A stretch of 64,000 bases of DNA from a virus (taxonomy: Duplodnaviria; Caudoviricetes): positions 32,001-96,000 of the IMG/VR virus record IMGVR_UViG_3300021387_000090; one strand, 5' to 3'. The notes beneath the pieces are model-generated. The model was not told where the DNA came from. It saw nothing but the letters and a program-made list of their open reading frames with translations, and did no database searches. Positions 7,681-63,455 of this stretch are shown in pieces. The translations under genes and the position numbers were made by a program. Positions within the stretch are counted from its first letter, which is position 1. Every line of letters starts with the position of its first letter.

Positions 7681-10600
7681 GTGCCTTCTAATTTTAGTGA
7701 TTTATTAAATAATGGAATTGTCAGCAATGATGAAGTAACCCCAACAGTTAATAGTAATAGATTAATGGCGGCTACAGATACTATTGCTGATGATACTGAA
7801 GAATGGACTAGAATAGTGAATGGTGTATATGAGTGGTATGATGAGTACACTGATGATCAAGGGCTGTCTACGGTTGATGCGAACAAACTTGTAACATTAG
7901 CGCCCAATCAAACCAATATCACGCAAGAAAGCAATTCACAATATATCAGTTTTAGAATGCAAAGATATTATGATGGCGTTGATCTTACTCAGATGACCAT
8001 TCGTTTTTATATCGTTAATTCTAAGAATGAGGGATATATTCTGCCAGCTTGTAATGTGTCGTATAATCAGAATTATATTAAATTTCATATGCTTGTAAAC
8101 GATGCTATGACACAAGTTGCTGGCACATTGAAATTTGAAATACAGGCTAGTGGTACGACTTCTGCGGGTACATACCGCTGGAAGACGAGATCTAATTCTC
8201 AATTAACTGTATTAGAAGCGTTATCTTATGATGATTTAATTGAGCCTAGTGATGGTTGGCAATCTTATCTGATTCAAATTGATAATGCAGTATCACAGGC
8301 TGAGACTGCTGCGCATACTGCTGAACAAGCGGTTGAATCTGTATCTGAAAAATTAGATGAATTTGATCAAGAAAAAGATAATGTAACTGCTGCTGTTGAG
8401 GAGAATGTCCGAAATGACATGAACGATACTATTGCCAATGCGCTTAGTACTGCACTAGATGATTATTATACGAAAGATGAAGTAGACAGTAAAGCTACAA
8501 ATCTTACTGTTAACTATAATACTAGCACTCATGTAATGACTTTCTTAGATAATGGTACACAATTCGCAGAATATGATTTGTCACAAGATCCTTCTCAGAC
8601 ATGGACATCTAATTTTAGAGAAAATGCTATTGCATCTGATATTCAATCTGCTATTAATACCGCTTTAAATAATTATTATACTAAAGCAGAAATTGATGAC
8701 AGCTTATTAACCATTAATTCTGCAATCGATGCATTAGAAGCGAAGTTGGATGGTGACGATTATTATACTGCGTCTGAAGTAGATGCTAAAGTAGCAACAA
8801 AAGCGGATTCTTCTACCGTTACAGCTATCCAAAATCAAATGAATGAAATTGCTTCTACAGCAAATTCAAATAAATCTAATATTACAACTATTGGTACTAA
8901 GATAGCTGAGTTAGAAGACGCAATTGCTGATATTGATACTTCCGAGTCTGCTATTAAGTATTATATCACTTATGATACTGATGATAGCTTAAGTGATGCT
9001 GAGAAATATATGCTGACTCTTTGGACATATGAAGGGGATGAATTTGTTCGTTCTAATGCCACTGCTGTTTGTGCAGTAAAGGTTGTCGGAGGTGGTGGAG
9101 GTGGACAATCTTCCTCTTCTACTATTACAATCTCCTATATTACAACGACTCCTGTTATTGTAAGGACGGGATCCAATATTGTATTACAATATCATTATCG
9201 TTCTGTAGATACTTCTGGGGTAGATATTGGTGGTACTGCTACATGGAGAATTGGCAACACTATTATTGGTACTCAAGTATTGACATCTAATACAGATAAT
9301 GAATTTGATGTAACGAATTTTGTTTCTTTGGGTACACAAAAAGTAACCTTAAGTATTACAGATGATAATGGTACTCTTGCTACTCGTGTTTGGACAGTAC
9401 AAGTTGTAGATGTACGATTGGAATCTAGTTTTAATGATACTTTTACTTATCCTATGGGGCCAATAAGTTTTGACTATACACCTTATGGAAGTATTAGTAA
9501 AGTGGTTCATTTCAAACTTGATGGTAATGAAATTGGAACTGTAACAACAACCTCTTCTGGTTTGCCAATGGGATTTGATATTCCTACACAAACTCATGGG
9601 GCGCATTTGTTGGATGCTTATATTACAGCAACAATTAGTGGAACTGATATTGAAACGGATCATATTTATAAAGATATTATTTGGTATAATGAGAATTCTA
9701 CTATTCCTGTAATTGGTGTTAATACACAAAATATTACTGCACAACAGTATGATACCAATAATATTACTTATACGGTATATGATCCTAATACAGAAACTCC
9801 TACTGTAACTTTTGCAGTTGACGGTGAACCTATTGCTACAAATATTGTAACGAATGGTGCGCATATTTGGAGTTATAAAGGTACTGTAGTTGGTAATCAT
9901 GTTTTAACTATTACTTGTCGTGATGTTATTAAAACTATTAATCTTACTGTCACAAAATTAGATATTGATATTGAACCTATTACCGCTAATTTGCAATTGG
10001 ATTTTAATCCTACTGGAATGAGTAATAACAGTGCTGATCGTTTGTGGTCAAATGGTACTTATCATATGTCAGTATCAGATAATTTTGATTGGGTAAATGG
10101 TGGATATCAGCTTGATGAAAACGGTGATCAATATTTTGGTATTAAAGCGGGAACTACTGCAACTTTTGATTACAAATTATTTGGTGATGATGCTAAACGT
10201 AATGGTAAGGAATTCAAGTTGGTCTTTAAAGTAGCAAATGTACGGGATATTGACACTACATGGATGTCTTGTATGGGAACAACTGGTACTGCTAATGTGG
10301 GTATATATATGAAGCCTCATGAGGCATATATTAATTCAAGTACCAATACTTTAATGTCTCCCATTGCCGAGGAGGACATTATTGAGTTTGAATTTAATAT
10401 AGCTAAAGATACTGCCAACATTCCTATGGTTATGACTTATGAAGATGGTGTAGCCCTTCGTCCTAAAGTGTATGGTTCTGATGATTCTTTTACTCAAGAT
10501 ACGCCTACGGATATTGTATTTGGATCTACTGAGTGCGATATTCGAATTTATAGAATGAAATGCTATAACTCTTCTCTTTCTGACAGTAATATTTTAACGA

Positions 10601-38314: not shown

Positions 38315-38932
38315 TTATTCCTCCATAATTTCTTTAATATACGGAAGATCCTTTAAGATTCCTATGAACTGATTCCATTCTGTCAATTTATGTCCAGTTC
38401 TTTGCTTGATCATCGTGACCACATTTTCGTAGTTCATAGTTACTGTTCTTTTCTGATTATAAGAAGATGGAAGTAACTGTATTAACCCCCTCCAATATCT
38501 TTTATCTTTTGTTTCCAAATAGTATTTTCTCAACATTTCACAATCTGCAACAACATTAATAAAACAATCATTCATACTAATTCCTTCATCTGCTATATCA
38601 AACTCTTCTGTTGAAAAATCAGATAATGTGATTGGTTTACTTGTGATTTTATGCATAGTAGAACAAGAATTAGCAACAGTTCCAATTTTATAAGTGTCGA
38701 ATTCTTTCCACCAGTAAAGCGGAGCAGTAATGTCCATACTGACGAATATCTGACGAAGATATTTACGGTGAGAGGGGTCACCTCCTTTATATAATCTCTT
38801 CATAAGGTCTAAATCCTTTGTTCCAATAACAGCTGTTGTACTGTCACTCTTATCCCAACTATTCATAGGGTTTCTCATTCCTCTAATAGCGTGTTCAAAT
38901 CCCCACACATCTGTATTTTCTACTTTAATCAT
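38315..38932 (-). CDS. Divergent ThyX/Thy1-like protein
   Basis: AIRGMRNP, HRKYLR, APLYWWKEFDTY, NSCSTMH, LLPSSY, RTGHKLTEW. ThyX-like layout but lacks the canonical RHR motif. Confidence 0.6.
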   Translation of the reverse strand: MIKVENTDVWGFEHAIRGMRNPMNSWDKSDSTTAVIGTKDLDLMKRLYKGGDPSHRKYLRQIFVSMDITAPLYWWKEFDTYKIGTVANSCSTMHKITSKPITLSDFSTEEFDIADEGISMNDCFINVVADCEMLRKYYLETKDKRYWRGLIQLLPSSYNQKRTVTMNYENVVTMIKQRTGHKLTEWNQFIGILKDLPYIKEIMEE

Positions 38933-55358: not shown

Positions 55359-56489
55359 TTATTTAATACTCTCTCGCTCTTTCCCAGTAGAGTAAAGAGT
55401 TTGAATTGAATTTAAATTATCATACATATAATCAGGAACAGCAATCTCATTCTTATGAGTAATCACAACTTTAAATTCTCGATCAAATGAATCTTTTCTT
55501 AATCTCTCTAAGAAATTATAATCCATTTGTCCATATCTAATTGTTCCCTGAAATTCATTAGGAATATTTGTTTCATCATAAAGCCCTATACTTAATTGCT
55601 TATCTTCTTTAAAATTAGGATCAATACCATGCCTTGTCAAATAAGTTCTTGTAACATAATAAGGTTCTGTATAAAAACCAAGTTTTTGTTCAAGCACTCG
55701 GACATTATCGAGTCCTGTGTTTGATGGAGTAGTATGGACGTTATCAGGATCGTCATTTAATAACAACCCTTGACCGTTTTCAAAAATCACTTCATCGTAT
55801 TTTTTAATGATCTCTGCATCGCACCACATAGTATGATTTAACATAAAATAGCAATCTTGAAGATATTTTTCAATAATAGCATCATTCTCTGTATAAAGGA
55901 TTTTACTCCAGTTTAAAATAACTTGATTGGATATTTCTTGATTTTCTTTATATCGTTTAAAATTATAATCAAAATAATTCTTTCTAATTTTAATCCAATC
56001 ACAAAACGACTTAATATCACCCCATGTGCAAACAGAAAAATCATTATATAATTTTACTGTTTGCCAAATACCCATGCCACAACTACCGTGTCGCTTTTCA
56101 CCACGACTTTCTTCTAGCATTTGATTTAAATACATCTCATACGGAGTGGTAATGCGACATTTTTTATCAATATAAACGTGAGAATAAAATCCCATTTTAT
56201 TTAATTCTTTATATTCCTGTACAAAAACCATAGGGTTTATAATAAAGAATTCTGAAAGATAAGTATCTGCACCTATAAAAGTACCAGACCCAAAATGACG
56301 AAAAGCATGTTTGATACCTTCAACTAAGGAGACGGTATGAGAGCGTTGTGGGCCACCATTATTTAAAACTACTAATGTCTTATAACCTTTTTGAATTGCT
56401 TGATTAGCAAGATAATCTGTAACTAACCCTTTTCCTTCGTCACCCGCATTCATCCCTACTACAACCTTTGATCTCACATCTATTCCCAT
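55359..56489 (-). CDS. Divergent adenylosuccinate synthetase (PurA-like)
   Basis: GDEGKG P-loop, HTV, HGSCGMG, FENGQGLLL, TPSNTG, RTYLTRHG, TN..N.FQG..RYG. Confidence 0.85.
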   Translation of the reverse strand: MGIDVRSKVVVGMNAGDEGKGLVTDYLANQAIQKGYKTLVVLNNGGPQRSHTVSLVEGIKHAFRHFGSGTFIGADTYLSEFFIINPMVFVQEYKELNKMGFYSHVYIDKKCRITTPYEMYLNQMLEESRGEKRHGSCGMGIWQTVKLYNDFSVCTWGDIKSFCDWIKIRKNYFDYNFKRYKENQEISNQVILNWSKILYTENDAIIEKYLQDCYFMLNHTMWCDAEIIKKYDEVIFENGQGLLLNDDPDNVHTTPSNTGLDNVRVLEQKLGFYTEPYYVTRTYLTRHGIDPNFKEDKQLSIGLYDETNIPNEFQGTIRYGQMDYNFLERLRKDSFDREFKVVITHKNEIAVPDYMYDNLNSIQTLYSTGKERESIK

Positions 56490-61263: not shown

Positions 61264-61279
61264 TTTGGTAGCTAACCAG

Positions 61280-61418
61280 TCGGAGTGATAGGATTCGAAC
61301 CTATAACACACAGTTCCTTGTTCCTATGAAGTAAGTGTTATACTGCTTCATTTTACATGAGAATAATAATAACACTCAAATATATTATACTGTTGCTCTA
61401 CCGTTAAGCTACACTCCG
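61280..61418 (-). ncRNA. tRNA-Pro-like scaffold with a 74-nt insert in place of the anticodon loop
   Basis: CGGAGTG/CACTCCG-A acceptor, intact D and T arms; ACAGT/ACTGT stem encloses 61315-61388. Confidence 0.8.
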
Positions 61419-61997: not shown

Positions 61998-62105
61998 AAT
62001 AAATACAGGAATGAACTAACATTTGCAGTCTTCGCTAACATACCAGTCAATGTGTACTCATGAGGGGCATACCATTTTCCACTTGAGGCCCATATTCACT
62101 TATAT

Positions 62106-62182
62106 ACCGCACCGAAAGTTATCTACGGCTTTTACACTCGTAACTTTAATCCGTCGATTGTGCCCACGGCCATCCGTGCGGT
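62106..62182 (-). ncRNA. Unknown three-way-junction RNA
   Basis: Stems ACCGCAC/GTGCGGT, CCGT/ACGG and AAAGTTA/TAACTTT. Confidence 0.55.
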
Positions 62183-62185
62183 TTA

Positions 62186-62283
62186 TTATGCGGGTAAGGA
62201 TTTGCACCTTACATGAGCAAGTTATTTACCGTAATTTCACATGCTCTTACGGACTATGTGTCTATCTATTCCACCACCGCATA
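62186..62283 (-). ncRNA. tRNA-like scaffold carrying an H-type pseudoknot instead of an anticodon arm
   Basis: TATGCGG/CCGCATA acceptor, Leu-type D arm, GTAAGG-TGCAAAT-CCTTAC T arm; insert pairs CCGTAA/TTACGG and GAGCA/TGCTC. Confidence 0.75.
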
Positions 62284-62285
62284 AC

Positions 62286-62333
62286 GTAGTCTTTCCTACT
62301 GTCAGATCCCTCCACTTTGCACAAGTGAAGATC
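62286..62333 (-). ncRNA. Hairpin plus TGACA-GTAG-GAAAGA-CTAC, resembling the 3' end of c4 antisense RNAs
   Basis: Sequence seen directly; family resemblance recalled from the C4 consensus, not searched. Confidence 0.45.
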
Positions 62334-62532
62334 GGAACGACAGGAATCGAACCCGCAATCAAGTTATCAACTTGTAAGCCGTTTCAAACCTTTATTTTGA
62401 TACGAGGAATTAGTATCATTATCACGCTACCCTCGAATGGTTACAAGTCCTACGCTACCTTTTATAAGAACAAAGGGATGGTGATTAGCCAATTACATCT
62501 TCGTCCATGTCTTCCTATTCCATCACGTTCCG
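62332..62532 (-). ncRNA. tRNA-like scaffold with ~150-nt structured insert
   Basis: CGGAACG/CGTTCCG-A acceptor, ATGG-AATAGGAAGA-CAT D arm, GCGGG-TTCGATT-CCTGT T arm; insert 62357-62506. Confidence 0.75.
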
Positions 62533-62591
62533 AAGTGAGAGATGGGTAATTACATCCCTTATTGGTAGTCTCTCATTCAGTTTTCTACCAC

Positions 62592-62663
62592 AGCTGAAGG
62601 TGGGACTCGAACCCATGACCCTTCGCTTGCAAGGCGAATGTTCTCCCACTGAACTACAAGCCC
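62592..62663 (-). pseudogene. Chimeric tRNA-Ala(TGC) with largely unpaired acceptor stem
   Basis: D, anticodon (CTTGCAA) and T loops are normal, but 5' GGGCTTG does not form a proper stem with 3' CTTCAGC. Confidence 0.75.
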
Positions 62664-62941: not shown

Positions 62942-63074
62942 AAATAAAATAATTAATTAATTAATTGAAGAGAAATCACACCTTTTTCTTCATATGGGGG
63001 TGTCTATTTAACATATAGATACGTTATCAGATATATCATTTCACTGATAAAAAGATTCACTTTGGGGAATCTAG

Positions 63075-63455
63075 TACGGGTAGTGGGACTTGAACCCACA
63101 CTCTCTTGCGAGAAACGGATTTTCTTACTACACTATGTCACCATAGCCATCTTAATGGATGTTGTAGTCTGGACTATGTTTTTACCATATCATTTCTGAC
63201 TTAGGTAGATGGTATATAGTCTCTACACATTTATAGATAGGGTTCGAGCGTCAATGATAACATGTTCATTCCGTCAGTCTCTCTTTTAAAAATAAACGAA
63301 CTAAAACGATTACTTCCCTATCTAATTTAGCTCGGCGTTCTCTTAGCCATTCACCGAATTAGCCATCTCCACTTATATCGTTTCCGATATAAGGCTCTCT
63401 TTTAATGTCTGCTAAGACGAAAGTCCGTTGCGTCTGCCTATTCCGCCATACCCGC
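63075..63455 (-). tRNA. tRNA-Leu(TAA) split by an intron: exons 63455..63421 and 63123..63075
   Basis: Joined exons give a canonical class II cloverleaf with ACGGA-CTT^AAAA-TCCGT and a long variable arm. Confidence 0.92.
63124..63420 (-). mobile_element. Group I intron (297 nt, no ORF) in the tRNA-Leu(TAA) anticodon
   Basis: Inserted after U34, ends in G; AATTCGGTGAA, GTAGAGACTA and CATAGTCC core elements; CTATG-GTGA-CATAG P9-like hairpin. Confidence 0.88.

What the first reader, a model, noticed from the sequence alone, without database searches (positions are those of the whole stretch)
62332..62532. 201-nt tRNA-ended RNA with a 150-nt multi-domain insert
Seen: a perfect 7-bp acceptor, D arm and T arm around an insert with stems GATG/CATC, CCTTT/AAAGG, ACTTGTAA/TTACAAGT and TGATAC/GTATCA. 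The loop CCTC can pair with upstream GAGG (pseudoknot), and GGTAGCGT occurs twice. It has no group I core and no G3-U70 tmRNA identity. Inference: a novel structured RNA class; the duplicated 8-mer suggests two binding sites for one protein.
Basis: partly seen in the sequence, partly recalled or inferred. Interest (0 to 1): 0.75.

Follow-up and report, generated by a model that had tools for sequence, protein, structure and literature searches.

The report
Phage tRNA-like RNA, expanded anticodon loop
This is a real, conserved phage gene for a tRNA-shaped RNA whose anticodon loop holds a 113-base insert, so it probably cannot decode and instead acts as a tRNA-framed non-coding RNA of unknown role.

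Summary
The feature is real. It lies on the minus strand (window 62532-62332) in a tRNA island of a 155-kb phage with terminal repeats.

ARAGORN in intron mode reads it as a class II tRNA with a UGA triplet and 113 extra bases between positions 31 and 32.

I found four homologues in other phage or metagenome contigs:
- **Two long forms** (L014, L018) are about 92-94% identical to ours.
- **Two short forms** (L025, L026) carry only 34-36 extra bases.

On the five-sequence alignment:
- The acceptor and T stems covary: 7 pairs changed on both sides, and 0 of 500 shuffles reach this.
- The D arm, the insert core, the 7-nt loop and the variable arm are almost invariant.

The long forms differ from the short ones by a ~79-nt module set into a closing helix. 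The 61-nt core of that module also occurs free-standing between tRNAs in L016.

It is not a group I intron, a BHB intron, a tmRNA or any Rfam family. It does not score as a Y RNA, although the phage encodes Ro60 and Y RNAs nearby.

Best reading: a non-decoding tRNA-like scaffold RNA, function unknown.

The scan had noted a look-alike stretch in another genome (e1-5779162).

The parts
62332..62532 (-). Whole tRNA-like RNA, from acceptor base 1 to the discriminator A (201 nt; 204 nt as ARAGORN calls it)
   Evidence: ARAGORN -i calls tRNA-Ser(tga) i(33,113). Homologues L014, L018, L025 and L026 begin and end at the same points, in unrelated flanks.
62526..62532 (-). Acceptor stem, 5' strand (CGGAACG)
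   Evidence: 5 of 7 pairs changed on both sides in L025 (GAAAGCA/TGCTTTC).
62333..62339 (-). Acceptor stem, 3' strand (CGTTCCG); the discriminator A is at 62332
   Evidence: The discriminator is A in four copies and G in L025.
62507..62523 (-). D arm of tRNA-Leu type (3-bp stem, loop AATAGGAAGA with G18G19)
   Evidence: The stem is invariant in 5 copies. The loop matches that of the phage's own tRNA-Leu(UAA) at 9 of 10 positions.
62502..62506 (-). Anticodon-stem remnant, 5' strand (GGACG); it follows the D stem directly, with no position 26
   Evidence: ARAGORN model. Invariant in all 5 copies, with a conserved A.G mismatch.
62389..62501 (-). 113-nt insert between tRNA positions 31 and 32
   Evidence: 11 of 113 columns vary, against 11 of 91 in the tRNA parts. 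The short forms carry 34-36 nt here.
62477..62499 (-). Hairpin H1 (GATG, 15-nt loop, CATC), present in both long and short forms
   Evidence: L025 has GATG/TATT, so both changes give G.U. Both variable sites among the long copies (columns 45 and 46) lie in its loop.
62468..62476 (-). Closing helix P-a, 5' strand (CCTTTGTTC)
   Evidence: RNAalifold. P-a is present in the MFE and centroid folds of all 3 long copies. It is perfect in L014 and L018. In the short forms it is reduced to a CCT-loop-AGG hairpin.
62389..62397 (-). Closing helix P-a, 3' strand (AAATAAAGG), directly before the 7-nt loop
62399..62459 (-). Accessory module: stem P-b with two 1-nt bulges, bearing hairpins P-c and P-d
   Evidence: Absent from the short forms. 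Present free-standing in L016:988-1046, which keeps 17 of 21 predicted pairs. Its internal fold is not thermodynamically distinctive.
62382..62388 (-). 7-nt anticodon-loop remnant TTTGAAA (TTTGAGA in the four other copies)
62377..62381 (-). Anticodon-stem remnant, 3' strand (CGGCT)
62360..62374 (-). Class II variable arm (CAAGTT-GAT-AACTTG)
   Evidence: 6 bp. There is one A-U to G.U change, in L018.
62340..62356 (-). T arm (GCGGG-TTCGATT-CCTGT)
   Evidence: Two pairs changed on both sides and one on one side only; 100% of cells pair.

Best explanation
The gene encodes a non-decoding tRNA-like RNA. The body is a class II, tRNA-Leu-type frame with acceptor stem, D arm, variable arm and T arm.

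Its anticodon loop is expanded in two layers:
- **Core expansion** (about 35 nt): hairpin H1 plus a small hairpin.
- **Accessory module** (about 79 nt, long forms such as this one): set into that small hairpin, which turns it into a 9-bp closing helix.

Shown:
- The frame is under selection to pair.
- The anticodon-side region is under selection on its sequence.
- The insert is modular.
- The module's 61-nt core also exists outside a tRNA.

Inferred from what is established for tRNA-shaped substrates: the intact elbow and 7-bp acceptor let RNase P, RNase Z and the CCA-adding enzyme cut the RNA out of the island's transcript. The result would be a stable RNA of about 204 nt.

Speculative: the remodelled anticodon region is the working end. 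It may bind a protein or RNA that normally reads tRNA anticodon arms, acting as a decoy. Alternatively it may simply display the module, as a natural tRNA scaffold. LeuRS and SerRS do not read the anticodon, so charging of such a frame is not excluded.
For: - ARAGORN cloverleaf.
- Five homologues in five different flanking contexts, with boundaries at the tRNA ends.
- Compensatory changes in the acceptor stem (5 pairs) and T stem (2 pairs); 0 of 500 shuffles reach the observed values.
- The elbow nucleotides (U8, A14, G18G19, TTCGA) are invariant.
- The insert varies no more than the tRNA parts: 11 of 113 columns against 11 of 91. Only 1 change falls in columns 95-150.
- Every substitution in columns 58-145 lies in a loop or bulge, or keeps a pair.
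- The short forms join the two P-a strands by a 3-5 nt loop.
- The module recurs free-standing in L016.

Reasons it is unlikely to decode:
- There is no position 26.
- An A.G mismatch in the anticodon stem is conserved.
- The body is Leu-type while the triplet is UGA.
- The discriminator varies between A and G.
- The phage has a separate normal tRNA-Ser(UGA).
Against:
- There are only five homologues. The three long forms are 92-96% identical, so the helices inside the insert have almost no covariation.
- RNAalifold's fold was derived from the same sequences it is judged on.
- The module's fold is not more stable than shuffles in our copy (z = -0.1 to -0.5).
- The conserved 7-nt loop with U33 and a purine at 37 is what a decoding tRNA would keep.
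- No partner is known.
Confidence: 0.55

Rival explanations
1. The insert is an intron. It is removed, by itself or by a protein, to give a working tRNA-Ser(UGA).
For: - ARAGORN models it this way.
- A 7-nt loop with the UGA triplet and a flanking stem is conserved in all five copies.
- The same island holds a tRNA-Leu(UAA) with a 297-nt insert at the classical group I site. That insert is absent from the relative L006.
Against: - Rfam finds no Intron_gpI match even at E<=10.
- The base before the insert is G or C, not U. Williams 2020 (10.1101/2020.01.27.920355) finds U-1/omegaG in 98.5% of tRNA group I introns.
- Inserts of 113 nt, and of 34-36 nt in the short forms, are too small for a group I core.
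- No bulge-helix-bulge motif can be drawn.
- Promoters and ribosome-binding sites in related contigs are bacterial, and no protein-dependent tRNA splicing is known in bacteria (from knowledge).
- The spliced product would lack position 26, keep an A.G mismatch, and combine a Leu-type body with a Ser triplet.
- The insert core is more conserved than the acceptor and T stems.
- No insert-free allele was found.
Confidence: 0.12
2. It is a Y RNA variant. The insert carries one or two binding sites for the phage's Ro60 protein.
For: - The phage encodes a TROVE/Ro60 protein 7.6 kb away, flanked by five Y-like RNAs.
- The neighbouring tRNA (window 61279-61418) carries a permuted Y module in its anticodon loop.
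- L014's phage also has Ro60.
- By eye, TAGCG and TAATTCCTCG resemble the module's AGCGG and TTATTCTCG.
Against: - HMMs built from 13 Y-module strands score the true Y RNAs at 19-24 bits and the neighbouring tRNA at 13.2 bits. They find nothing in this RNA or its homologues.
- The GNCGAA(N)G motif of PMC4201824 is absent.
- The 8-mer copies are not conserved.
- The complete 73-kb phage that carries the short form has no TROVE gene.
- L006 and L007 have Ro60 but not this RNA.
Confidence: 0.1
3. It is a decaying tRNA pseudogene disrupted by junk DNA.
For: - The anticodon stem is imperfect.
- The cloverleaf is non-canonical.
- The Rfam tRNA model does not score it.
Against: - Five copies in different phages keep the stems through compensatory changes.
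- They keep the insert core almost invariant while the flanks are unrelated.
Confidence: 0.05
4. The conserved unit is a protein-coding gene on the opposite (+) strand.
For: An antisense frame is open across the element in all three long copies.
Against: - 15 codons change the amino acid, against 3 that are synonymous.
- Variable sites fall 8/8/6 over the three codon positions.
- The flanks that would hold the start and the stop are unrelated between copies.
Confidence: 0.01

Closest known systems
YrlA-type bacterial and phage Y RNAs (tRNA mimics bound by Ro60/Rsr; PMC4201824)
   Same: - A non-decoding RNA with true D arm, T arm and acceptor features.
- The anticodon side is replaced by something else.
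- It is encoded in the same phage as Ro60 and Y RNAs.
   Different: - There is no Ro60-binding motif.
- The ends lie at the acceptor stem, not in a Ro-binding helix.
- It occurs in a complete phage without Ro60.
Bacterial tRNA genes split by group I introns in the anticodon loop (10.1101/2020.01.27.920355)
   Same: - The insert lies at the edge of the anticodon loop.
- The last base of the insert is G.
- A probable example sits 540 bp away in tRNA-Leu(UAA).
   Different: - There is no catalytic core.
- There is no U at -1.
- The insert is far too short.
- The insert is more conserved than the exon stems.
Stable RNAs of unknown function in the phage T4 tRNA cluster (species 1 and 2, rnaC/rnaD). 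Recalled from memory, not tested here.
   Same: Small stable RNAs encoded among phage tRNA genes and released by tRNA-processing enzymes, with no known function.
   Different: No sequence comparison was made. Any relation is only an analogy.
Engineered 'tRNA scaffolds' for expressing RNA in bacteria. Recalled from memory.
   Same: A cargo RNA placed in the anticodon arm of a tRNA body, which supplies processing and stability.
   Different: Those are artificial. Here the arrangement is natural, and the cargo's function is unknown.

Membership tests
Canonical tRNA (Rfam RF00005) | 7-bp acceptor stem and T arm with a TTCRA loop | tested here: met
   both stems covary in five homologues.
Canonical tRNA (Rfam RF00005) | D arm with G18G19, U8 and A14 | tested here: met
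   Invariant in 5 copies.
Canonical tRNA (Rfam RF00005) | Continuous 5-bp anticodon stem with a 7-nt loop, and position 26 | tested here: not met
   The stem is interrupted by 113 nt (34-36 nt in the short forms). It has an A.G mismatch, and there is no base between the D stem and the anticodon stem.
Canonical tRNA (Rfam RF00005) | Score at or above the Rfam gathering threshold (29 bits) | tested here: not met
   No RF00005 match over 62332-62532, even at E<=10.
Group I intron in a tRNA | Catalytic core (P3-P8) detectable by a covariance model | tested here: not met
   No Intron_gpI match at E<=10. Caveat: the same model also misses the probable group I intron in the neighbouring tRNA-Leu.
Group I intron in a tRNA | U at -1 and G at the last intron position | tested here: not met
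   The -1 base is G (or C with the alternative cut). The last base is G.
Group I intron in a tRNA | Length of roughly 200 nt or more | tested here: not met
   113 nt here; 34-36 nt in L025 and L026.
Archaeal/eukaryal protein-spliced tRNA intron | Bulge-helix-bulge motif at the two junctions | tested here: not met
   By inspection of the junction sequences: the first insert bases cannot pair with the first bases after the insert.
Archaeal/eukaryal protein-spliced tRNA intron | Host with a tRNA splicing endonuclease | tested here: inconclusive
   Sigma-70-type promoters and AGGAG ribosome-binding sites in L006, L014, L016 and L004 point to a bacterial host. The phage proteome was not screened for an endonuclease.
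tmRNA | tRNA-Ala-like end with G3.U70, and a tag reading frame | tested here: not met
   ARAGORN finds no tmRNA in the window. Pair 3-70 is G-C.
Y RNA / YrlA | Ro60-binding helix with a GNCGAA(N0-1)G 5' strand | tested here: not met
   nhmmer with HMMs of 13 local Y modules gives no hit in this RNA or its homologues.
Y RNA / YrlA | Encoded within about 4 kb of a Ro60 gene (criterion of PMC4201824) | tested here: not met
   It is 7.6 kb from Ro60 in this phage. There is no TROVE gene in the complete phage G006.
Y RNA / YrlA | tRNA-like domain | tested here: met

The most novel reading that the evidence does not exclude
These phages may use tRNA bodies as natural scaffolds. In this reading, exchangeable RNA modules are displayed in an expanded anticodon loop.

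Observations in its favour:
- The same frame occurs with and without the 79-nt module.
- The module's core occurs free-standing elsewhere.
- Neighbouring frames carry a Ro60-binding module or unrelated cargo.

This would be a new class of phage non-coding RNA. Candidate roles are decoys for host factors that read tRNA anticodon arms (such as anticodon nucleases or modification enzymes), or chargeable tRNAs that do not decode.
Probability: 0.3. Interest if true: 0.8.

Novelty: new variant of a known kind. Interest (0 to 1): 0.58.

Why it matters
Phage tRNA clusters are usually read as codon-usage or anti-defence supplements. This island shows tRNA-shaped genes that almost certainly do not decode.

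If the frames are scaffolds or decoys, they would be a new route by which phages deploy small RNAs. They would also give a natural precedent for engineered tRNA scaffolds.

There is a practical point too. Gene callers either miss these genes or label them as intron-containing tRNA-Ser, and that label is probably wrong.

Tried and rejected
**Family and reading tests that failed**
- Rfam at gathering threshold and at E<=10 on the window and on L014-L016 found only plain tRNAs.
- Y RNA reading: by eye the insert resembles the local Ro60-binding module, but strand HMMs give no hit. I dropped it as the main reading.
- Resemblance of parts of the insert to the 3' end of 16S rRNA: seen by eye only. 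There is no SSU match, so I dropped it.
- Antisense ORF: open in all three long copies, but the substitution pattern is not that of a coding gene.
- BHB motif: cannot be drawn.

**Searches that found no further copy**
- INPHARED phages, near and distant modes: no relative of the insert.
- Synteny through the neighbouring ORFs found no new copy of the RNA.
- Exact insert 21-mer in IMG/VR: none.
- T-arm/acceptor pattern in IMG/VR: none.
- Gapped module pattern in GTDB genomes: one chance hit, in a Chloroflexia MAG.
- BLAST of the insert against its own genome and the related loci: no second copy.
- Whole records of the Ro60-bearing relatives L006/L007 and of L002/L003: no copy.

**Other dead ends**
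- Promoter and terminator scan of the island: no more sites than in shuffles.

Full report
**Context**

The window is bases 32001-96000 of a 154,699-bp IMG/VR virus record with direct terminal repeats. It has about 34% G+C. Its genes include DnaB, a primase, a Sak4-like protein and a PurZ-like enzyme.

The finding lies on the minus strand in a 2.4-kb island of tRNA and tRNA-like genes.

**What the sequence holds**

ARAGORN without introns and the Rfam tRNA model both skip 62332-62532.

ARAGORN in intron mode calls window 62330-62533(-) a 91-nt class II tRNA with the triplet UGA. It places a 113-nt insert between positions 31 and 32. The cloverleaf has these parts:
- a 7-bp acceptor stem, CGGAACG/CGTTCCG, with discriminator A;
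- a 3-bp D stem whose loop, AATAGGAAGA, is almost the same as that of the phage's own tRNA-Leu(UAA);
- a stem GGACG/CGGCT with an A.G mismatch and no position 26;
- a loop TTTGAAA;
- a variable arm CAAGTT-GAT-AACTTG;
- a normal T arm.

The 204-nt RNA as a whole folds no better than shuffles (z = -0.61).

**Homologues**

No close phage is in INPHARED. Neighbouring ORFs gave either an identical contig or contigs without the island.

That prompted pattern scans, which found:
- **L014:7157-7360**, a long form in IMG/VR.
- **L015**, a metagenome copy cut by its contig end. Its full-length twin is **L018:211-413**.
- **L025:2761-2885** and **L026:3217-3337**, two short forms in IMG/VR.

In all five contigs the flanks are unrelated. 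Similarity begins and ends at the tRNA ends.

**What the comparison shows**

Among the three long copies, 11 of 91 tRNA columns vary and 11 of 113 insert columns vary. Six of the insert changes sit in one 11-nt stretch, and only one falls in columns 95-150.

On the five-sequence alignment A5:
- 96.7% of cells pair in the structure I tested.
- 7 pairs changed on both sides: 5 in the acceptor stem and 2 in the T stem. No shuffle out of 500 reaches these values.
- The D arm, GGACG, hairpin H1, the 7-nt loop, CGGCT and the variable arm hardly vary.

So the frame needs only to pair, while the anticodon side is constrained in sequence.

**Fold of the insert**

RNAalifold instead pairs columns 58-66 with 137-145, giving helix P-a. 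This helix is perfect in L014 and L018. It appears in the minimum-energy and centroid folds of all three long copies.

P-a encloses a stem, P-b, that bears two hairpins, P-c and P-d. All nine substitutions in columns 58-145 lie in loops or bulges, or keep a pair.

That fold was derived from the same three sequences, so two independent checks matter more:
- In the short forms the two P-a strands are joined directly, as CCCT-GAA-AGG and TCCT-GGGAG-AGG. The ~79 nt between them are absent.
- The 61-nt core of the module recurs free-standing in L016, right after a tRNA-Met. There it keeps 17 of 21 predicted pairs, including one pair changed on both sides.

H1 is supported by two C-to-U changes opposite G in L025.

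The inner fold of the module remains weakly supported (z = -0.1 to -1.5).

The second GGTAGCGT is GGTATCGT in L014, and the first is GGTTCTGT in L016. The short forms lack both copies.

**What it is not**

- **Group I intron.** There is no core by Rfam and the -1 base is G or C. The length is 113 nt, or 34-36 nt in the short forms. By the criteria of Williams 2020 it fails.
- **BHB intron.** The junctions cannot form the motif. Promoters and ribosome-binding sites in the related contigs look bacterial.
- **tmRNA.** ARAGORN finds none.
- **Antisense gene.** The antisense frame is open but not under coding selection.

**The Ro60 lead**

Earlier notes pointed to a Ro60 locus. I confirmed several parts of this:
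- A TROVE protein lies at G000 102127-103791.
- Five flanking Y-like RNAs share an outer helix, AGCGG, an inner stem, TTACTTC, a tRNA-like cargo and TTATTC. Their 5' strand fits the GNCGAA(N)G motif of PMC4201824.
- The neighbouring tRNA (window 61279-61418) and L006:14140-14271 carry this module, permuted, in the anticodon loop.

For the RNA in question the lead fails:
- HMMs of the module's two strands recover the true members at 13-24 bits. They find nothing in this RNA, L014 or L018.
- L014's phage has Ro60. The complete 73-kb phage with the short form has no TROVE gene.
- The Ro60-bearing relatives L006 and L007 lack this RNA.

**Reading**

The best-supported account is a non-decoding tRNA-like RNA: a Leu-type class II frame whose anticodon loop carries a conserved core expansion plus an optional module.

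Processing by RNase P and RNase Z into a ~204-nt species is inferred from the intact frame, not shown. What the anticodon side binds is unknown. A decoy or scaffold role is speculation.

Related frames with the same acceptor sequence but other anticodon regions exist in L006 and L020. A second family of Leu-type frames, with a TGCAAAT T loop and unrelated cargo, sits next door (window 62186-62283; L006, L014, L023). The phenomenon is therefore wider than this one gene.

**Limits**

There are five homologues and no expression data. All collection scans are spent, and there is no statistical covariation inside the insert.

Noticed in passing
window 63074-63455 (-): tRNA-Leu(UAA) with a 297-nt insert exactly at CTT/AAAA, the classical group I site, ending in G. 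R- and S-like elements (GAGACTAT and ATAGTCC) can form P7. The Rfam Intron_gpI model does not detect it, even at E<=10. The relative L006:7539-7622 has the same tRNA uninterrupted.
   Followed up: partly
window 61279-61418 (-); L006:14140-14271: A tRNA frame whose anticodon loop carries a circularly permuted copy of the phage's Ro60-binding Y-RNA module, conserved between two phages. It scores 13.2 bits with the 5'-strand HMM.
   Followed up: yes
L004:4400-8200 (G000 100400-104200): A Ro60/TROVE gene (554 aa) flanked by five Y-like RNAs whose cargo is a set of tRNA-like D, anticodon and T arms. The outer helix covaries (GA..TC to GT..AC). Relatives L006 and L024 have the same arrangement.
   Followed up: partly
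window 62186-62283 (-); L006 ~8240-8385, 8505-8605, 8845-8945; L014 6683-6865; L023 401-512: A second family of Leu-type tRNA frames with a TGCAAAT T loop and a covarying acceptor stem (ATGCGG/CCGCAT against ATGTGG/CCACAT). The middle part is unrelated in each copy, 48 to about 130 nt long, with no anticodon.
   Followed up: partly
window 62052-62227 (-) = L006:8339-8495: A 176-nt non-coding block, 83.5% identical between two phages whose Ro60 proteins are 76% identical. It has no Rfam match and may be another structured RNA.
   Followed up: no
L018:413-417, L020:1679-1684, L021:66-72, L022:29-34, L023:512-518: tRNA-like frames end 2-3 nt before the ATG of an Nlig-Ia-like small ORF (PF22745), with no room for a ribosome-binding site. 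tRNA processing there would leave a nearly leaderless mRNA.
   Followed up: no
window 55359-56489 (-): The ORF matches phrog_1211, annotated as 2-aminooxy adenylosuccinate synthetase (PurZ-like, E = 4e-50). The phage may replace adenine with 2-aminoadenine in its DNA.
   Followed up: no
window 62592-62661 (-): A tRNA with anticodon loop CTTGCAA (Ala, TGC) found by Rfam at 45.4 bits but missed by ARAGORN. Its acceptor stem has several mismatches.
   Followed up: no
L006:9094-9165; L020:1596-1679: Frames with the same acceptor as this RNA (CGGAACN/NGTTCCG-A) but a class I D arm. One has an anticodon arm with a 3-nt loop. The other has a 15-nt loop that reads as Phe(GAA) plus 8 extra bases at the same 31/32 site.
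   Followed up: partly
window 38470-38487 (-) (G000 70470-70487): An isolated 10.2-bit match to the 5'-strand HMM of the Y module, far from the Ro60 locus.
   Followed up: no
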